Positions 38,201 to 42,450 are shown, numbered from the stretch's first letter. The stretch: 64,000 bases of DNA from Acidaminococcus sp. (GCA_022482815.1 JAKVOM010000001.1:1630946-1694945); one strand, 5' to 3'. Notes: a model not told the origin generated them from the letters alone. Numbers and translations are program-made.

Positions 38201-38278
38201 GGCCCAGTAGTTCAGTTGGTTTAGAATGCCGCCCTGTCACGGCGGAGATCGTCGGTTCAAGTCCGTCCTGGGTCGCCA
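38201..38278 (+). tRNA. tRNA-Asp (GTC)
   Basis: Cloverleaf, anticodon loop CTGTCAC, 3' CCA. Confidence 0.95.
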
Positions 38279-38280
38279 AT

Positions 38281-38355
38281 GCGGAAGTAGCTCAGTGGTA
38301 GAGCATCACCTTGCCAAGGTGGGGGTCGCGAGTTCGAATCTCGTTTTCCGCTCCA
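38281..38355 (+). tRNA. tRNA-Gly (GCC)
   Basis: Cloverleaf, anticodon loop TTGCCAA, 3' CCA. Confidence 0.97.
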
Positions 38356-38356
38356 T

Positions 38357-38430
38357 AGGAGTATAGTTCAATGGTAGAGCAACGGTCTCCAAAACCGTGG
38401 ATCTGGGTTCGAATCCTAGTACTCCTGCCA
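38357..38430 (+). tRNA. tRNA-Trp (CCA)
   Basis: Cloverleaf, anticodon loop CTCCAAA, 3' CCA. Confidence 0.97.
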
Positions 38431-38440
38431 GTGAATTTTA

Positions 38441-38477
38441 AAGCGTGGAAATTCTTACAAGAGTTTCCACGTTTTTT
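38441..38477 (+). terminator. Terminator after the tRNA cluster
   Basis: CGTGGAAA..TTTCCACG stem followed by a T-run. Confidence 0.7.
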
Positions 38478-38623
38478 ATTTATTATAGAAGAAATCCCAT
38501 ATTGTTTCCGCTTTAACGGGACAATATGGGATTTCTTTAATTATTTTCTTGTTCTGCTGAGGTTTTCAAGTGACAATAATGGGTTTTAGGCAGTTCTCAA
38601 TGCAGCTAATTGCGAATGAGCAT

Positions 38624-38735
38624 TAAGAACATAAAAACAACTTTTTATGTTCTTATATGTTGCTAAGAGCAAAAAAACCACATTTTTTGTTCTTAACTGT
38701 TACTAAGAGCAAAAAAACGCAATTTTTTGTTCTTA
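38624..38735. repeat. Three 32-bp palindromes at an exact 40-bp period
   Basis: Units TAAGA(A/G)CA...TGTTCTTA start at 38624, 38664 and 38704. Confidence 0.9.
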
Positions 38736-38917
38736 AAGTAATTCAACAAGCTTTGAAAATACATATCTTGTCTTTCTTTGACTGCCACTACGCATATTTT
38801 GCCGAATATTGTGGCGATTTTATAACTACATCGACTTGTCACTTGGCATTTAAATAATTTATAATAAGAATAATAAAATTATTTAAAATACTTTTATCGC
38901 AAGGAAGTGATTGGACG

Positions 38918-39481
38918 TTGAGTAAAATTAAGTTTGGTCTCAACATGCCGAAAAAGGCAAACATCCAGACAATGGATGAGCTGCGGGAATTTTTTGATGT
39001 GCAGGCCGTAATGAAATGTTTCTTAGACGGCAAGCTCAAGACTTGGCTGGAAGACCGGAATTATGAAGAAGCTGAAGCCGTCCGGCAGCTTGAACGCGAT
39101 TTGTCTGCACAGCTTTGTGCCATTTTTGGCGTAAAAGTGCAGCAGGCTCCGGAATCTTCTGAGATGACTTTTGGTATCAAGGAAGAACGGGAAGGATTCC
39201 ACCGCAAGGCGCAGACTTATAAGGTGTCTTCCGGGTTTGATACGATGCTGGATGATAAAAAGCGGGAAGTTTCGAAAGAAACTTTTAATCGCATCCAAGC
39301 GGCGTTCAGAAATTGGCAGTATGATCCATTAAAAGACAGTCGGGCCATTATCGATGTAATCAATGGTTCCGGGCTGCAAGGATACGGCAAACATTTTACG
39401 GATGATACCCGAATTGCAGATGTCATCAGCAGCAGTGATTTGCGAGGCTATGTAAAAAATTATTTAAACCGACTGGCATAA
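38918..39481 (+). CDS. Hypothetical protein (island gene 1)
   Basis: TTG start after AAGGA; 187 aa, helical. Confidence 0.8.
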   Translation: MSKIKFGLNMPKKANIQTMDELREFFDVQAVMKCFLDGKLKTWLEDRNYEEAEAVRQLERDLSAQLCAIFGVKVQQAPESSEMTFGIKEEREGFHRKAQTYKVSSGFDTMLDDKKREVSKETFNRIQAAFRNWQYDPLKDSRAIIDVINGSGLQGYGKHFTDDTRIADVISSSDLRGYVKNYLNRLA

Positions 39482-39492
39482 AGGAGAAAAAA

Positions 39493-39999
39493 ATGGAACA
39501 ATTAAGCGAATTAAAAAAGCAGAAATTTAGCAATATGGTGAATGAGATAAATCAATATTTTTATAGAAATGAAGTAAGCGGCATTCTTCTTCAGGATCGT
39601 CCTGACAGACTTCCGATTGCTAAGGAAAAAGAGTGGGAATATCGAAAAAATCCTTTGGTAGGCATTGTTTATAGTATTATTTATGCCCATAATGAGAATG
39701 ATAATCCTTTCATGGGAATGTTCGCTGCCCCCACTAGTCTCCTACCAGGGATGAGTTTATCTCAAGGTGCGTCTTTGTTTTGGTCTCTCTTCCTCTGTGC
39801 CGTCAGTGATGAATTTTACGATAATGAGCTGAATCTCGTTGCAGATCAGGCCACAGCATTTGACTTTACCCCTGAAGACGTAGAGGATTGGATTACTGCT
39901 GTGAAATACGTGCTCGACAACAATAAATTAAGCGAGAACTGCAATTTGGCTGTCAAGGGTGAGAAAGCAAAGAAATTTTTCGGTGTACAAGGGATTTAA
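39493..39999 (+). CDS. Hypothetical protein (island gene 2; possibly TerB-like helical C-terminus)
   Basis: AAGGAG RBS, 11 bp after the previous stop; fold guess is tentative. Confidence 0.8.
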   Translation: MEQLSELKKQKFSNMVNEINQYFYRNEVSGILLQDRPDRLPIAKEKEWEYRKNPLVGIVYSIIYAHNENDNPFMGMFAAPTSLLPGMSLSQGASLFWSLFLCAVSDEFYDNELNLVADQATAFDFTPEDVEDWITAVKYVLDNNKLSENCNLAVKGEKAKKFFGVQGI

Positions 40000-40161
40000 C
40001 CCAAAGAAAATGCACGAAGGAAAGTAAGATAACTGAACCAAAGTTAGTGTATTATTTTGATATAGTCTTACTAATGTATTGACCTTAATTACGGGGGGCT
40101 GTCCTTACAATTTGCTAGCGACTGCGTCTCGCTAGACCAAGCAGTGGAGGAGGAAAGACAC

Positions 40162-40971
40162 ATGGGTATTCTTGATATACTGGAAGAAAAACATGATCGT
40201 CATAATCGGGCCAAAGAATACCGGAAATCCGCAGAGCATTATATAGAACACGGCAAGGAAATCATCAACCGGGCTTATGAAAGAGCCTCCCGGGACGCGT
40301 ATAAGACGGAAAAAGCGGTCGATGATTTCAACGATTTCAGAACTCAGGTGGCAAGAGAACTCAATACGTCCATCCGTCCTGTGTTAAGAAATTTTGAGGA
40401 TTTTCATATTGATAGCAAAATTGATGTTCCTGATGTGGGGGTAGATGATATCCGCCTGTCTTCTTTTCATTTTTCTGCTGCTTCCAGTATCCCGAATTTA
40501 GATATTCTTCCGATTTTTGCTATCCTAAGTTTCTTTGATGACAGCGATTATGACGCTGCCTGGACGGCCAAAATGAAAGCAGAAGGTTTCTATGATGACA
40601 TGAAGTACTACAGGATAATGCTGAATAATAAAAGGAAAAAGATGAGCGAAATCCGTTCTTTTCTGGCAGAGGAGCAGTCAGTCATCACATCTTTGATGGA
40701 AAAATTGTCGGCTGCCAAAGACAAACTGAATGAAGGAATGAGAAGCAGCTCTTTCTCCCAAGAGCAGGCAGATACGCTGAAGGGCATCGCCAAATGCTCC
40801 AAACTCGTCGCCAAAACACTTGAGACACAGTTCCTTACGGATTCGGATGATATCGATGACAGAGCCAAAAAACTTCTCAAAGAAATTCAAACCATCAATG
40901 AAGAATTGCCTTCGGCTCCTGATATCCGGCGTTCTCCTAAGGTTATCTGGTTTGGCTCGATTATGTATTGA
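40162..40971 (+). CDS. Hypothetical coiled-coil protein with a central hydrophobic segment (island gene 3)
   Basis: GGAGG RBS; coiled coils flank LDILPIFAILSFF. Confidence 0.8.
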   Translation: MGILDILEEKHDRHNRAKEYRKSAEHYIEHGKEIINRAYERASRDAYKTEKAVDDFNDFRTQVARELNTSIRPVLRNFEDFHIDSKIDVPDVGVDDIRLSSFHFSAASSIPNLDILPIFAILSFFDDSDYDAAWTAKMKAEGFYDDMKYYRIMLNNKRKKMSEIRSFLAEEQSVITSLMEKLSAAKDKLNEGMRSSSFSQEQADTLKGIAKCSKLVAKTLETQFLTDSDDIDDRAKKLLKEIQTINEELPSAPDIRRSPKVIWFGSIMY

Positions 40972-40985
40972 CGGGTATTATAAAA

Positions 40986-41309
40986 ATGGATACTAAAATA
41001 AGTGATCTGGTTGCGGAGCTGATAAGGGCTTTTTACGACTATCTTTATGAGAAGGAATATCAGAAAGAGTATCATTTGACAGAACTTGAGAAAAATATAG
41101 CCGTAATCAGAATCCGGACGAAGCAGATAGCGGCCCAAACGGAAAACATGAAGGCCTATTTTGATTCTCATCAACAGGAAAGGCTGCGGCTCTACCAATC
41201 TGCCGAAAAAGTGCTGGACAAGGCGCTGGCAGACGGCGATAGTGAGTACGCGGAACTGGCCTGCAAGATGATTACGATTATCCGGCAGAAAAATCCTTTC
41301 GCGTTTTAG
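40986..41309 (+). CDS. Hypothetical helical protein (island gene 4)
   Basis: Closely follows gene 3; C-terminus similar to gene 5. Confidence 0.75.
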   Translation: MDTKISDLVAELIRAFYDYLYEKEYQKEYHLTELEKNIAVIRIRTKQIAAQTENMKAYFDSHQQERLRLYQSAEKVLDKALADGDSEYAELACKMITIIRQKNPFAF

Positions 41310-41347
41310 AAAAGGATATTCCCGGTGAGGAGAAGGAAGGGATTTTT

Positions 41348-41836
41348 ATGAGCAGAGACAGTGATAAAAATGAGGTGATTACTGTTACGGCGGAACCCGT
41401 GCCAAGTAAGGCTTCCGCGCCGACTTCGGTGGCGGGAGCTATTTCCATCAAAAACATTCCTATTGAAATTAGTATTGGGTTAATCAAGGAAATCGCGGAT
41501 GTGTATAAAATCGGCATCGAGTGCTTTACGGACTACCTTACCAGTCGGCAGCAAGAAGAGACGGAAAGATTGAGAATCAGGGAATGCGCAAGGGCCATTG
41601 AAAAGAAACTGGAATATGACCAGGAACTCAGACTGAAGATATTAGAAGATAACAGCAAGGAAAAAAATCGTCTCTATGATTCAATGGAAAAAAGTCTGGA
41701 CGTTGCCCTTAAGAATAACGATACAGCCTTTGCCCAAGTTGTAATAAAAACGATGATGGATCTATATAAGTACGATAAAAACATGCCCCTTTTGCAGAGT
41801 CTTGGCAGTTCTCAAGATTCGATAACTCTGAAATAG
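41348..41836 (+). CDS. Hypothetical helical protein (island gene 5), paralog of gene 4
   Basis: Shared E+.RLY.S.EK.LD.AL...D...A motif. Confidence 0.8.
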   Translation: MSRDSDKNEVITVTAEPVPSKASAPTSVAGAISIKNIPIEISIGLIKEIADVYKIGIECFTDYLTSRQQEETERLRIRECARAIEKKLEYDQELRLKILEDNSKEKNRLYDSMEKSLDVALKNNDTAFAQVVIKTMMDLYKYDKNMPLLQSLGSSQDSITLK

Positions 41837-41931
41837 ATGGTGGAATGATGGAAAGGAAAAGTGAACAATGGGGAAGGCACTGTGCGGCGGAGAATCAGTG
41901 CGATAACAAGTCATAGTAGATTTGAAGGAAG

Positions 41932-42450
41932 GAAAACAGCGTCGCGCCCGAATGAGGCCAAATCAAAGATTTGGCTCAATTGAATTAGGACGGTGCTTGA
42001 TTATACTCATTCCTGCGTTCTGAATGAATACCCACCGCAGACGGAAGCCCCGATGGAATCGGGCCTTCCTGCGGTCCGCCCCTCTTATTTTCCAATGGAA
42101 AACAAGAGGGCAAAAGAGGTGCGGAATTTTCACTTTTGCCTTCTATATTTCAAAAAGCAGCTTTTTTGGGGCTAAAACATTCTATCCTCCATCGCAAGCG
42201 ATTCTCCTCCTTTCGACGCCGCAGTGCGGCGTGAAAGAAGGTCCAGCCGTAGCCAATACTTCGCATTGCCGGAATGAAATTAAAAGAGCTACGGAAATTT
42301 ACCGCAGCGATGTCATATTTTTGTTTTAACAAAGCAGTATAGAAGGTTAAAAAAATAATAAGGGTCATCATCCACCGCAAAGCGGTCCCCCTTCCTCAAT
42401 GTCGCGCAGCGACGTCGAGGAAGGTCCCTACGGCGGGGGGATAGCTTCTT
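41932..42450 (+). repeat. Mosaic double-hairpin repeat block, copy 2
   Basis: Aligns by eye with copies 1, 3 and 4. Confidence 0.9.

What the first reader, a model, noticed from the sequence alone, without database searches (positions are those of the whole stretch)
38918..41836. Five-gene operon of uncharacterised helical proteins beside a tRNA cluster
Seen: five co-oriented genes with foreign (AT-richer) codon usage, none with an enzyme motif I recognise. They include a coiled-coil protein with one hydrophobic segment, a possibly TerB-like protein and a paralog pair. Known: tRNA 3' ends are integration hotspots that often carry defence or competition islands. Inference: an undescribed multi-protein membrane-acting or anti-phage module, possibly partial.
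Basis: partly seen in the sequence, partly recalled or inferred. Interest (0 to 1): 0.65.

Follow-up and report, generated by a model that had tools for sequence, protein, structure and literature searches.

The report
Two fused gene cassettes, one new trio
The five genes are real, but they are two unrelated cassettes joined behind one promoter: a leftover front end of an ATPase-based system, and a complete copy of a rare, undescribed three-gene set of long-helix proteins that recurs in phage-defence islands and mobile elements.

Summary
Five co-oriented ORFs lie in a 40% GC, roughly 5-kb island after tRNA-Asp/Gly/Trp. None matches Pfam, NCBIfam, PHROGs or PADLOC. The "five-gene operon" is a mosaic.

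- **g1-g2** are in-frame shortened homologues (67-69% and 53% aa identity, dN/dS about 0.1) of the first two genes of a four-gene cassette. That cassette lies in a serine-recombinase element beside type I RM or BREX genes. Its Cdc48-like AAA+ ATPase and glycine-rich membrane protein are absent here, and DNA homology stops at the g2 stop codon.
- **g3-g4-g5** are a self-contained trio. g3 has 70 remote relatives (E up to 0.001) among 1.84 billion representatives. In 9 of 10 contexts examined a g4-like gene follows g3, and a g5-like gene follows too in all 8 contexts with enough sequence. No other neighbour is conserved, and g1-g2 never accompany the trio elsewhere.
- **Neighbours** include Cas9, a STAND-type kinase, BnzB-like and DrmC-like genes, integrative elements, and once an operonic LeoA-like dynamin pair.
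- **Models** show a long helical hairpin (g3) and a single 84-residue helix (g5). No known fold matches. The hydrophobic segment is not a conserved transmembrane helix.

Most likely the trio is a new non-enzymatic coiled-coil conflict or defence cassette. That function is inferred, not shown.

The parts
38201..38430 (+). tRNA-Asp(GTC), tRNA-Gly(GCC) and tRNA-Trp(CCA) cluster. This is the left-hand context of the island.
   Evidence: ARAGORN and Rfam tRNA hits. The same cluster follows pheT in the nearest relative, L030, but with unrelated genes after it.
38440..38475 (+). Terminator-like hairpin ending the tRNA operon. It marks the left edge of the AT-rich island.
   Evidence: Terminator scan, 16-pair stem followed by a T run. 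GC drops to 0.32 in 38500-38999.
38836..38865 (+). Sigma-70-like promoter (TTGTCA-18-TATAAT, 11 of 12 matches) upstream of g1. It is the only strong promoter match ahead of the five genes.
   Evidence: DNA homology to the L003 cassette starts at 38855, so the -10 region and leader came in with g1-g2.
38918..39481 (+). g1, 187 aa. It has the N-terminal 'ELREFFDVQAV..FLDGKL..WLEDR.Y' module plus the C-terminal domain of the 291-aa protein P0003. The central segment of about 105 residues is missing, in frame.
   Evidence: 67% identity over residues 3-83 and 69% over 62-187 to P0003. dN/dS is 0.12. Residues upstream of the internal ATG (IKFGLNMP) are conserved with P0003, which supports the TTG start.
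39493..39999 (+). g2, 168 aa. It is a shortened homologue of the 204-aa second gene of the L003-L005 cassette. It has a strong ribosome-binding site (AAAGGAG) and starts 11 nt after the g1 stop.
   Evidence: BLASTP 53% identity, E=2e-67, with 38 gap columns. dN/dS is 0.10. No Pfam hit at E up to 1. DNA homology to L003 ends at 39998.
40000..40161 (+). Junction between the two modules. It has no homology to L003 and no promoter-like or terminator-like site.
   Evidence: One 151-nt metatranscriptome contig (39994-40144) spans most of it. This is weak evidence for read-through.
40162..40971 (+). g3, 269 aa, the large subunit of the trio. It has the family's N-terminal MG[LFI]FD motif, a long helical hairpin (helices 3-80 and 129-193) with a disordered tip carrying a short hydrophobic motif, three shorter C-terminal helices, and an LPxxPxI motif.
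   Evidence: HMMER found 70 relatives at E up to 0.001, full length, with 19-46% identity. Alignment A2. AF2 pLDDT 82.8, pTM 0.75. No significant Foldseek hit in PDB or BFVD. Not a transmembrane protein.
40986..41309 (+). g4, 107 aa (113 aa if the TTG at 40968, which overlaps the g3 stop, is used). It is the small helical subunit and a paralogue of the g5 core.
   Evidence: g4-like genes of 99-114 aa follow every g3 homologue except the one in L110.
41348..41836 (+). g5, 162 aa. It has a disordered 38-residue N-terminus, then one 84-residue helix (39-122) and a short helix (126-144). It has a strong ribosome-binding site.
   Evidence: AF2 pLDDT 81.7. Orthologues of 122-157 aa occupy the third position in L019, L022, L024, L026, L028 and L111, with a partial copy in L021.
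42595..43417 (+). Neighbouring, separate cassette: DUF3800-I RNA (42595-42708) and a DUF3800 gene (42722-43417). It forms the right-hand part of the AT-rich island and is not part of the five-gene unit.
   Evidence: Rfam RF02969, 85.7 bits. Pfam DUF3800, 5e-12. GC 0.33.

Best explanation
**Shown**
- The five genes lie in an AT-rich island of about 5 kb downstream of a tRNA cluster. One strong promoter-like site precedes them, and no terminator-like site lies in the gap between g2 and g3.
- They are a mosaic of two evolutionarily independent modules.
- *Module A (g1-g2)* is a pair of in-frame shortened copies of the first two genes of a four-gene cassette. The full cassette encodes a g1-like adaptor, a g2-like protein, a Cdc48/p97-like AAA+ ATPase and a 517-aa glycine-rich membrane protein. 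It sits in a serine-recombinase mobile element next to type I RM or BREX genes. The ATPase and membrane protein are absent from this window.
- *Module B (g3-g4-g5)* is a complete copy of a rare, undescribed, strictly syntenic three-gene cassette. It has a roughly 280-aa long-helical-hairpin protein starting MGxFD, followed by two paralogous small proteins, one of which (g5) was modelled as a single very long helix.

**Inferred**
- The three trio proteins assemble into one hetero-oligomeric coiled-coil bundle. The helix lengths of 65-84 residues match, the genes are tightly spaced or overlapping, and they are always inherited together.
- The trio acts as an autonomous, non-enzymatic module in phage or mobile-element conflict, most likely anti-phage defence. 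A possible mode is that g4 and g5 hold g3 in an inactive bundle until an invader product disturbs it, which frees the conserved hydrophobic/acidic 'FD-FF' motifs of g3 to bind a target or membrane.
- g1-g2 here are orphaned survivors of their own system. They were either retained for a residual function or simply supply the promoter.
For: **Mosaic structure**
- blastn homology between the window and L003 runs from 38855 to 39998 only.
- g1 and g2 homologues sit with an IetA-like, Cdc48-like AAA+ ATPase in L003-L005.
- The g1 N-terminal module recurs beside the same AAA+ in L008, L010, L011 and L013.
- The window has no AAA+ or 517-like gene.

**The trio as a unit**
- g3 has 70 remote full-length homologues.
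- g4-like and g5-like genes immediately follow the g3 homologue in L019, L020/21, L022/23, L024/25, L026/27, L028/29 and L111. L018 has a partial g4. No other neighbour is shared.

**Structure**
- AF2 models give high-confidence long helices.

**Conflict context**
- L024 lies between Cas9, a kinase-NB-ARC-TPR protein and MBL and HSP70-like genes.
- L019 has a BnzB-like gene (5e-16), a DrmC-like PLD (5e-20), NERD and an SLFN-like helicase.
- L111 is operonic with a LeoA-like dynamin pair (PDB 4AUR, 2e-8).
- L022 and L028 lie in integrative or mobilisable elements.
- Two-gene dynamin operons are a validated defence system (Millman et al. 2022, bioRxiv 10.1101/2022.05.11.491447).

**Expression and selection**
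- The promoter is present, and no terminator-like site lies in the g2-g3 gap.
- Sparse metatranscriptome contigs cover g1 to g5, including the g2-g3 gap.
- dN/dS of about 0.1 for g1 and g2 argues against long-standing pseudogene decay.
Against: - No functional evidence exists. The defence role rests only on neighbourhood, in about 5 of 10 contexts.
- L020 and L026 lie among housekeeping genes, and L110 is a solo g3.
- The trio gives no consistent PADLOC match, only scattered coiled-coil noise.
- It has no relatives in the phage, plasmid or IMG/VR collections.
- Complex formation was not modelled, because no multimer tool was available.
- In L022 the trio sits beside RadC, DUF932 and relaxase genes. 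That position would also fit an anti-defence or leading-region role.
- Purifying selection on g1 and g2 could mean they work together with the trio here.
- The RNA evidence is a handful of single-read contigs from a metatranscriptome that may contain DNA.
Confidence: 0.5

Rival explanations
1. The five genes work as one integrated chimeric system. g1-g2 would be a portable sensor or regulator front end that can be coupled to different back ends: the AAA+ ATPase and membrane protein in L003, and the coiled-coil trio here.
For: - There is a single promoter and no terminator in the g2-g3 gap.
- A transcript fragment spans the gap.
- g1 and g2 are intact, with dN/dS of about 0.1, and their deletions are in frame.
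- The g1 N-module family is fused to many different C-terminal domains, as an adaptor would be.
Against: - The trio occurs without any g1 or g2 relative in 8 other contexts, so it is autonomous.
- g2 was found only with the AAA+ cassette.
- g1 has lost the central segment that is conserved across its family.
- The combination was seen only in this one lineage.
Confidence: 0.15
2. The trio serves the mobile element rather than the host. It would be an anti-defence, entry-exclusion or establishment function carried in cargo or leading regions of integrative and conjugative elements.
For: - In L022/L023 the trio lies between RadC, DUF932, Rad52-like and YqaJ genes and a NikA-like/relaxase pair, with a divergent XRE regulator.
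- In L028/L029 it sits in an integrase and DUF5906-primase element.
Against: - Other copies lie in chromosomal islands next to Cas9/STAND, Bunzi-like/PLD and Eleos-like genes, or between housekeeping genes with no mobility genes in view.
- The trio is absent from 72,556 plasmids, 50,697 phages and IMG/VR at the sensitivity used.
Confidence: 0.2
3. The trio is a membrane-stress or membrane-remodelling accessory, PspA/ESCRT-III-like or a dynamin partner, with a physiological rather than conflict role.
For: - The N-terminus MG[LFI]FD resembles the start of PspA and Vipp1 (from memory, a lead only).
- g3 has a long helical hairpin.
- L111 is operonic with a dynamin-like pair, and a PspA gene lies 5 kb away in L019.
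Against: - hhalign of the g3 family against a PspA_IM30 protein gives probability 0.1%, and against the L111 dynamins less than 1%.
- No Pfam PspA_IM30 hit appears in 44 members.
- The N-terminal motif is acidic rather than basic-amphipathic.
- The distribution is patchy, rare and island-borne, unlike a housekeeping function.
Confidence: 0.1
4. The trio is a secreted alpha-helical toxin or effector with two small helical chaperones or partners. It would resemble the ClyA/XaxAB family, tripartite alpha-pore-forming toxins, or WXG100/LXG-like substrates.
For: - There are three helical proteins, including a paralogous pair of about 100 aa.
- There is a weak NCBIfam hit to alpha-xenorhabdolysin A (E=0.014, 14.7 bits).
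- AhlB, SmhB and NheA appear among non-significant Foldseek hits.
Against: - All of those hits are far below cut-off (125 bits is required; Foldseek E is at least 2.7).
- No conserved hydrophobic hairpin is present (1 of 44).
- No secretion-system genes appear in any of the 10 contexts.
- No WXG100 or LXG Pfam hits were found.
Confidence: 0.05

Closest known systems
Eleos / two-gene dynamin-like (LeoA-LeoBC) anti-phage system (Millman et al. 2022)
   Same: One trio copy (L111) lies 27 nt downstream of, and co-oriented with, a LeoA-like GTPase pair. Both are found in defence islands. Both are built largely of long helical stalks.
   Different: The window has no GTPase. The g3 family shows no profile similarity to the L111 dynamins. 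Seven other trio copies have no dynamin neighbour. PADLOC LeoA and LeoBC hits in a few g3 members are weak coiled-coil matches.
PspA/IM30/Vipp1 (bacterial ESCRT-III superfamily)
   Same: Both have an N-terminus beginning MG-hydrophobic-F, a long alpha-helical hairpin and a size of 220-290 aa.
   Different: No sequence or profile homology was found. The loop between the hairpin helices is a disordered insert of about 40 residues. The N-terminal motif is acidic. The two small partner proteins are soluble helices, unlike PspB and PspC.
IetAS-type and other AAA+-based defence cassettes (for g1-g2)
   Same: The parental cassette of g1-g2 contains a classical-clade AAA+ ATPase that hits PADLOC IetA models (1e-25) and Cdc48/p97 D2 (1e-64). 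It sits beside RM and BREX genes in a mobile element.
   Different: No IetS protease is present. The partners are a g1-type adaptor, g2 and a glycine-rich membrane protein. The window copy lacks the ATPase altogether.
ClyA/XaxAB and tripartite alpha-pore-forming toxins (Hbl, Nhe, AhlABC)
   Same: Both are sets of two or three all-helical proteins encoded together, with long helical hairpins that have a hydrophobic tip.
   Different: The hits are only sub-threshold. There are no signal peptides or conserved membrane-spanning hairpin. The small subunits are a third of the size of toxin components.

Membership tests
   hmmscan against Pfam-A at E up to 1 returned 0 families for g1 and g2, and no TerB hit for g3-g5. 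The 204-aa relative of g2 also had none at E up to 0.1.
PspA/IM30/ESCRT-III | Sequence or profile homology to PF04012 members | tested here: not met
   No PF04012 hit in 44 g3-family members. hhalign of A2 against a PspA_IM30 protein from L019 gave probability 0.07%.
PspA/IM30/ESCRT-III | Fold consisting of an alpha1-alpha2/3 hairpin plus alpha4-5 | tested here: inconclusive
   The AF2 model has a long hairpin plus three short helices. Foldseek gave only non-significant matches (CdvB2 at E=3.7 and a phage PspA at E=2.2).
Known anti-phage systems in PADLOC-DB v2 | A consistent significant hit of family members to one system's models | tested here: not met
   g1-g5 gave no hit better than E=0.004. 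Across 44 g3 and 14 g4/g5 relatives there were only scattered coiled-coil hits to LmuB, JetC, ZorA and LeoA, each in at most 6 members.
Eleos (LeoA/LeoBC dynamin-like defence) | Paired dynamin-like GTPase genes | tested here: not met
   None of the five window proteins has a GTPase-family hit. A LeoA-like pair is adjacent to the trio only in L111.
ClyA/XaxAB/tripartite alpha-pore-forming toxins | Family model match and a conserved hydrophobic membrane-inserting hairpin | tested here: not met
   NCBIfam alph_xenorhab_A scored 14.7 bits against a cut-off of 125. Foldseek E was at least 2.7. KD19 exceeded 1.6 in only 1 of 44 members.
AAA+ cassette of L003-L005 (g1-like, g2-like, Cdc48-like AAA+, 517-aa membrane protein) | All four genes present | tested here: not met
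   g1 and g2 are homologous. tblastn of the AAA+ and 517-aa proteins finds nothing in the 64-kb window. The rest of the genome could not be searched because the genome search was shut.
tRNA-integrated genomic island | Integrase gene and a direct repeat of the tRNA 3' end at the far border | tested here: not met
   No integrase or recombinase ORF lies in 38476-43450. The 25-nt and 15-nt 3' ends of tRNA-Trp occur only once in the window, even allowing 2-3 mismatches.
tRNA-integrated genomic island | Atypical composition and variable content at the same site in relatives | tested here: met
   Island GC is 0.40 against 0.52-0.54 for the flanking genes. The nearest relative, L030 (pheT 85% aa), has the same tRNA cluster followed by unrelated DNA.
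g3-g4-g5 trio (the family defined here) | A g3 homologue immediately followed by a g4-like and then a g5-like gene on the same strand | tested here: met
   This arrangement holds in the window and in L019, L020/21, L022/23, L024/25, L026/27, L028/29 and L111. L018 has a partial g4. L110 is the one solo g3.

The most novel reading that the evidence does not exclude
The g3-g4-g5 trio is a new kind of immune effector with no enzyme. It would be a metastable three-protein coiled-coil bundle, SNARE-like or viral-fusion-like in logic. On infection it would rearrange to expose the conserved hydrophobic/acidic motifs of g3, and then remodel or block membranes or phage assemblies. It would act either alone or as a partner of dynamin-like (Eleos) defence GTPases.
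Probability: 0.12. Interest if true: 0.75.

Novelty: new variant of a known kind. Interest (0 to 1): 0.45.

Why it matters
If the trio is a defence or counter-defence module, it adds a system made only of long-helix proteins, with no nuclease, NTPase, protease or transmembrane effector. That would point to a structural or mechanical mode of action that is poorly represented among characterised systems. The single operonic link to a LeoA-type dynamin pair gives a concrete handle on how dynamin-based defence might recruit partners.

The locus also gives a clear example of defence-island mosaicism. The promoter-proximal half of one cassette has been joined, under continued purifying selection, to a complete unrelated cassette.

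The practical value is modest until a phenotype is shown. The family is rare: 70 clusters at 50% identity among 1.84 billion representatives. It is known only from metagenomes and a few genomes.

Tried and rejected
- **Family libraries.** Pfam, NCBIfam, PHROGs and PADLOC gave nothing significant on g1-g5.
- **Word-indexed homologue search.** g3 and g5 found only themselves among 5.8 billion proteins. Only the full HMMER scan revealed the g3 family.
- **Profile against PDB sequences.** The g3 and g4/g5 families matched only designed or viral coiled coils.
- **Foldseek.** The g3 model against PDB and BFVD, and the g5 model against PDB, gave nothing at E up to 0.001.
- **hhalign.** The g3 family showed no relation to PspA, to the g4/g5 family, or to the L111 dynamins.
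- **BLASTP of g2 against the N-terminus of the L111 GTPase.** This tested the TerB/dynamin idea and found nothing.
- **tblastn against phages and plasmids.** g3, two g3 homologues, the 204-aa g2 relative and P0003 gave no match.
- **IMG/VR scans.** The g1 family and the g3 sub-family gave none. Alignments A2 and A3 were too divergent to generate search patterns.
- **att-like repeat.** No repeat of the tRNA-Trp 3' end was found.
- **Earlier scan notes.** A search by sequence found nothing related elsewhere.
- **Whole-genome search.** The missing AAA+ could not be sought in the rest of the genome, because the genome search was shut.
- **Rejected: integral-membrane reading of g3**.
- **Rejected: one ancestral five-gene operon**.
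Full report
**1. Observation**

The window has five co-oriented + strand ORFs at 38918-41836.

| Gene | Coordinates | Length |
|---|---|---|
| g1 | 38918-39481 | 187 aa |
| g2 | 39493-39999 | 168 aa |
| g3 | 40162-40971 | 269 aa |
| g4 | 40986-41309 | 107 aa |
| g5 | 41348-41836 | 162 aa |

- The family alignment fixes the g3 start at MGILD.
- g4 may instead start at a TTG at 40968 that overlaps the g3 stop.
- The genes follow pheS, pheT and a tRNA-Asp/Gly/Trp cluster.
- GC is 0.39-0.45 (GC3 0.39-0.54), against 0.52-0.54 (GC3 0.63-0.65) in the flanking housekeeping genes. The island 38476-43450 averages 0.40.
- A terminator-like hairpin ends the tRNA operon at 38440-38475.
- The only strong promoter match is TTGTCA-18-TATAAT at 38836-38865.
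- No promoter-like or terminator-like site lies in the g2-g3 gap.
- None of the five proteins has a significant hit in Pfam, PADLOC, PHROGs or NCBIfam.
- g4 and g5 are paralogues (E=5e-8).

**2. g1-g2 are the front end of another cassette**

- g1 has a 291-aa homologue, P0003. g1 matches its first ~85 residues (67% identity) and its last ~125 residues (69%). It lacks the ~105 residues in between, in frame.
- In three metagenomic loci (L003-L005), P0003 is followed by three genes:
  - a 204-aa protein that is 53% identical to g2, with g2 being 36 residues shorter;
  - a 495-aa classical AAA+ ATPase (PADLOC IetA models 1e-25; Cdc48/p97 D2 1e-64);
  - a 517-aa protein with a glycine- and alanine-rich hydrophobic C-terminal half.
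- This cassette lies just after two large serine recombinases. Type I RM or BREX (PglZ) genes follow it.
- DNA similarity between the window and L003 (73-80%) starts at 38855 and stops at 39998, the last base before the g2 stop. Nothing downstream is shared.
- The window contains no AAA+ or 517-like gene. The rest of the genome could not be searched because the tool was shut.
- The N-terminal part of g1 belongs to a wider family.
  - It heads proteins with very different C-termini: Sel1/TPR repeats, a WD40-like propeller, zinc ribbons, a biotinyl/lipoyl domain and HPr.
  - These genes often occur in 2-3 tandem copies.
  - In Selenomonas, Lachnospiraceae and Cytobacillus, and in one unclassified bacterial MAG, they lie next to the same highly conserved AAA+ (537-567 bits) and a 517-like protein.
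- dN/dS between the window and L003 copies is 0.12 for g1 and 0.10 for g2, with dS saturated. The pair has therefore evolved as coding sequence. The shortened forms may still function, but without their usual ATPase neighbour.

**3. g3-g4-g5 are an autonomous, conserved trio**

- Word-indexed searches found only self-hits for g3 and g5.
- A full HMMER scan of 1.84 billion representatives found 70 relatives of g3 at E up to 0.001, 54 of them at E up to 1e-10. Nearly all are full length (264-308 aa) and share 19-46% identity.
- I read ten independent genomic contexts.
  - In nine, a g4-like gene of 99-114 aa follows the g3 homologue within 0-28 nt or overlaps it by 4 nt.
  - In all eight with enough sequence, a g5-like gene of 122-157 aa comes next.
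  - The exception is a solo g3 in L110.
- An all-against-all comparison shows no other gene shared between these loci. No g1 or g2 relative appears in any of them.
The five-gene unit does not recur, but each of its two halves does.

**4. What the trio proteins look like**

- *g3 model.* AF2 on a 44-sequence alignment gives pLDDT 82.8 and pTM 0.75.
  - Helices 3-80 and 129-193 form a long hairpin.
  - The tip (88-117) is disordered.
  - Helices 200-221, 233-248 and 259-268 follow.
- *g3 conserved features*:
  - the N-terminus MG[LFI]FD;
  - a short hydrophobic/acidic motif at the hairpin tip (for example IPSIFDFF) followed by DYYEA;
  - a C-terminal LPxxPxI motif.
- *The hydrophobic segment.* In the window protein it reaches KD19 1.52. 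Only 1 of 44 relatives exceeds 1.6, so the family is not integral-membrane.
- *g5 model.* pLDDT is 81.7. It shows a disordered 38-residue N-terminus, one 84-residue helix and a short helix. g4 shares this core.
- *Fold and profile searches.* Foldseek against PDB and BFVD returned nothing at E up to 0.001. Profile searches against PDB sequences returned only generic coiled coils. hhalign found no relation of g3 to PspA, to g4/g5 or to dynamin-like proteins.
- *Inference.* The matching helix lengths (65-84 residues), the tight gene spacing and the strict co-inheritance lead me to infer a heteromeric coiled-coil bundle. This is not shown.

**5. Context and likely role**

| Locus | Neighbours of the trio |
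|---|---|
| L024 | Cas9; a 1406-aa kinase-NB-ARC-TPR protein (PADLOC PD-T4-6 and MkoA kinase hits); MBL-fold and HSP70-like genes |
| L019 | BnzB-like gene immediately upstream (5e-16); DrmC-like PLD (5e-20); NERD; SLFN-like helicase; PspA |
| L111 | Two GTPases ending 27 nt upstream; the second has a DLP_helical domain and matches LeoA (PDB 4AUR, 2e-8) |
| L022/23 | RadC, DUF932, Rad52-like, YqaJ, relaxase, resolvase |
| L028/29 | Integrase and DUF5906 primase |
| L020, L026 | Housekeeping genes |
| Window | DUF3800-I RNA/DUF3800 cassette, plus the g1-g2 remnant of a cassette linked to RM and BREX |

- The L111 pair has the architecture of the validated two-gene dynamin defence system.
- PADLOC models do not recognise the trio beyond coiled-coil noise.
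- The trio is absent from the phage, plasmid and IMG/VR collections at the sensitivity used.
- The most economical reading is a horizontally mobile, non-enzymatic conflict module, most likely defensive. Probability is about 0.4-0.5 for conflict in general, and less for any specific mechanism.
- An element-serving role (anti-defence or establishment) and a membrane-stress role remain open.

**6. Island status and expression**

- No integrase lies in the island, and the tRNA-Trp 3' end is not repeated.
- The closest relative available (L030, pheT 85% aa) has the same tRNA cluster followed by unrelated genes. More distant relatives also lack all island genes.
- The site is therefore variable, but tRNA-directed integration is not demonstrated.
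- Identical copies of the locus occur in several assemblies and in DNA runs of a food-fermentation study.
- A metatranscriptome of that study holds a few single-read contigs over g1, g2, the g2-g3 gap, g3, g4 and the g4-g5 junction. This fits low-level co-transcription but is weak evidence.

**7. Verdict**

- The feature is real and the description is mostly accurate.
The genes are undescribed, one part is partial, and the genes keep defence-like company. It is wrong in treating the five genes as one unit and in the TerB and transmembrane inferences.
- The new element is the g3-g4-g5 trio. It is a rare, conserved cassette with no detectable relation to any catalogued system, and its function remains to be tested.

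Noticed in passing
L003:10001-14567 (also L004, L005; related sets in L008, L010, L011, L013): This is a recurrent and apparently undescribed cassette. It combines a Cdc48/p97-like AAA+ ATPase with a distinctive N-terminal domain, a '517-like' protein that sometimes has a glycine-rich hydrophobic C-terminus, and one to three proteins sharing the g1-type N-terminal module. Those proteins carry variable C-termini: Sel1/TPR, WD40-like, zinc ribbons, biotinyl/lipoyl and HPr. In L003-L005 it sits between serine recombinases and RM or BREX genes.
   Followed up: partly
L111:1866-7668: The trio is operonic with a LeoA/LeoBC-like dynamin GTPase pair (829 aa and 567 aa). An RF-1-domain gene and a 70-aa Cys-rich ORF precede them. 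This is the only link found between the trio and a validated defence system.
   Followed up: partly
window 38624-38743: Three palindromes of about 32 bp are phased exactly 40 bp apart (TAAGAAC/TAAGAGC ... GTTCTTA), upstream of the g1 promoter. They lie outside the stretch shared with L003, so they do not belong to the g1-g2 cassette.
   Followed up: no
window 41880-42450 (copies at about 46020-46810): A mosaic intergenic repeat lies between g5 and the DUF3800 cassette. In DNA runs its contig depth is 180-525, against about 20 for the flanking single-copy DNA. It is therefore a multi-copy element in the genome or community.
   Followed up: no
window 38482-38544: A 24-nt inverted repeat (88% complementary, 15-nt spacer) lies just after the tRNA terminator, at the left edge of the AT-rich island.
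   Followed up: no
L019:4490-7988: Four co-oriented genes lie directly upstream of a trio copy: 301 aa, a paralogous pair of 261 and 215 aa (27% identity), and a 375-aa BnzB-like protein (PADLOC 5e-16). This may be a Bunzi-related system.
   Followed up: no
L026:4501-7915: The trio is bracketed by two paralogous genes of unknown function, 263 aa upstream and 253 aa downstream (33% identity). The whole block is inserted between a uroporphyrinogen methyltransferase/HemD-like gene and aroD-like genes.
   Followed up: no
L110:5926-6816: A solo g3 homologue has an altered C-terminus and no g4 or g5. It lies among transporter and GntR genes. It is either a decayed copy or evidence that g3 can stand alone.
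   Followed up: partly
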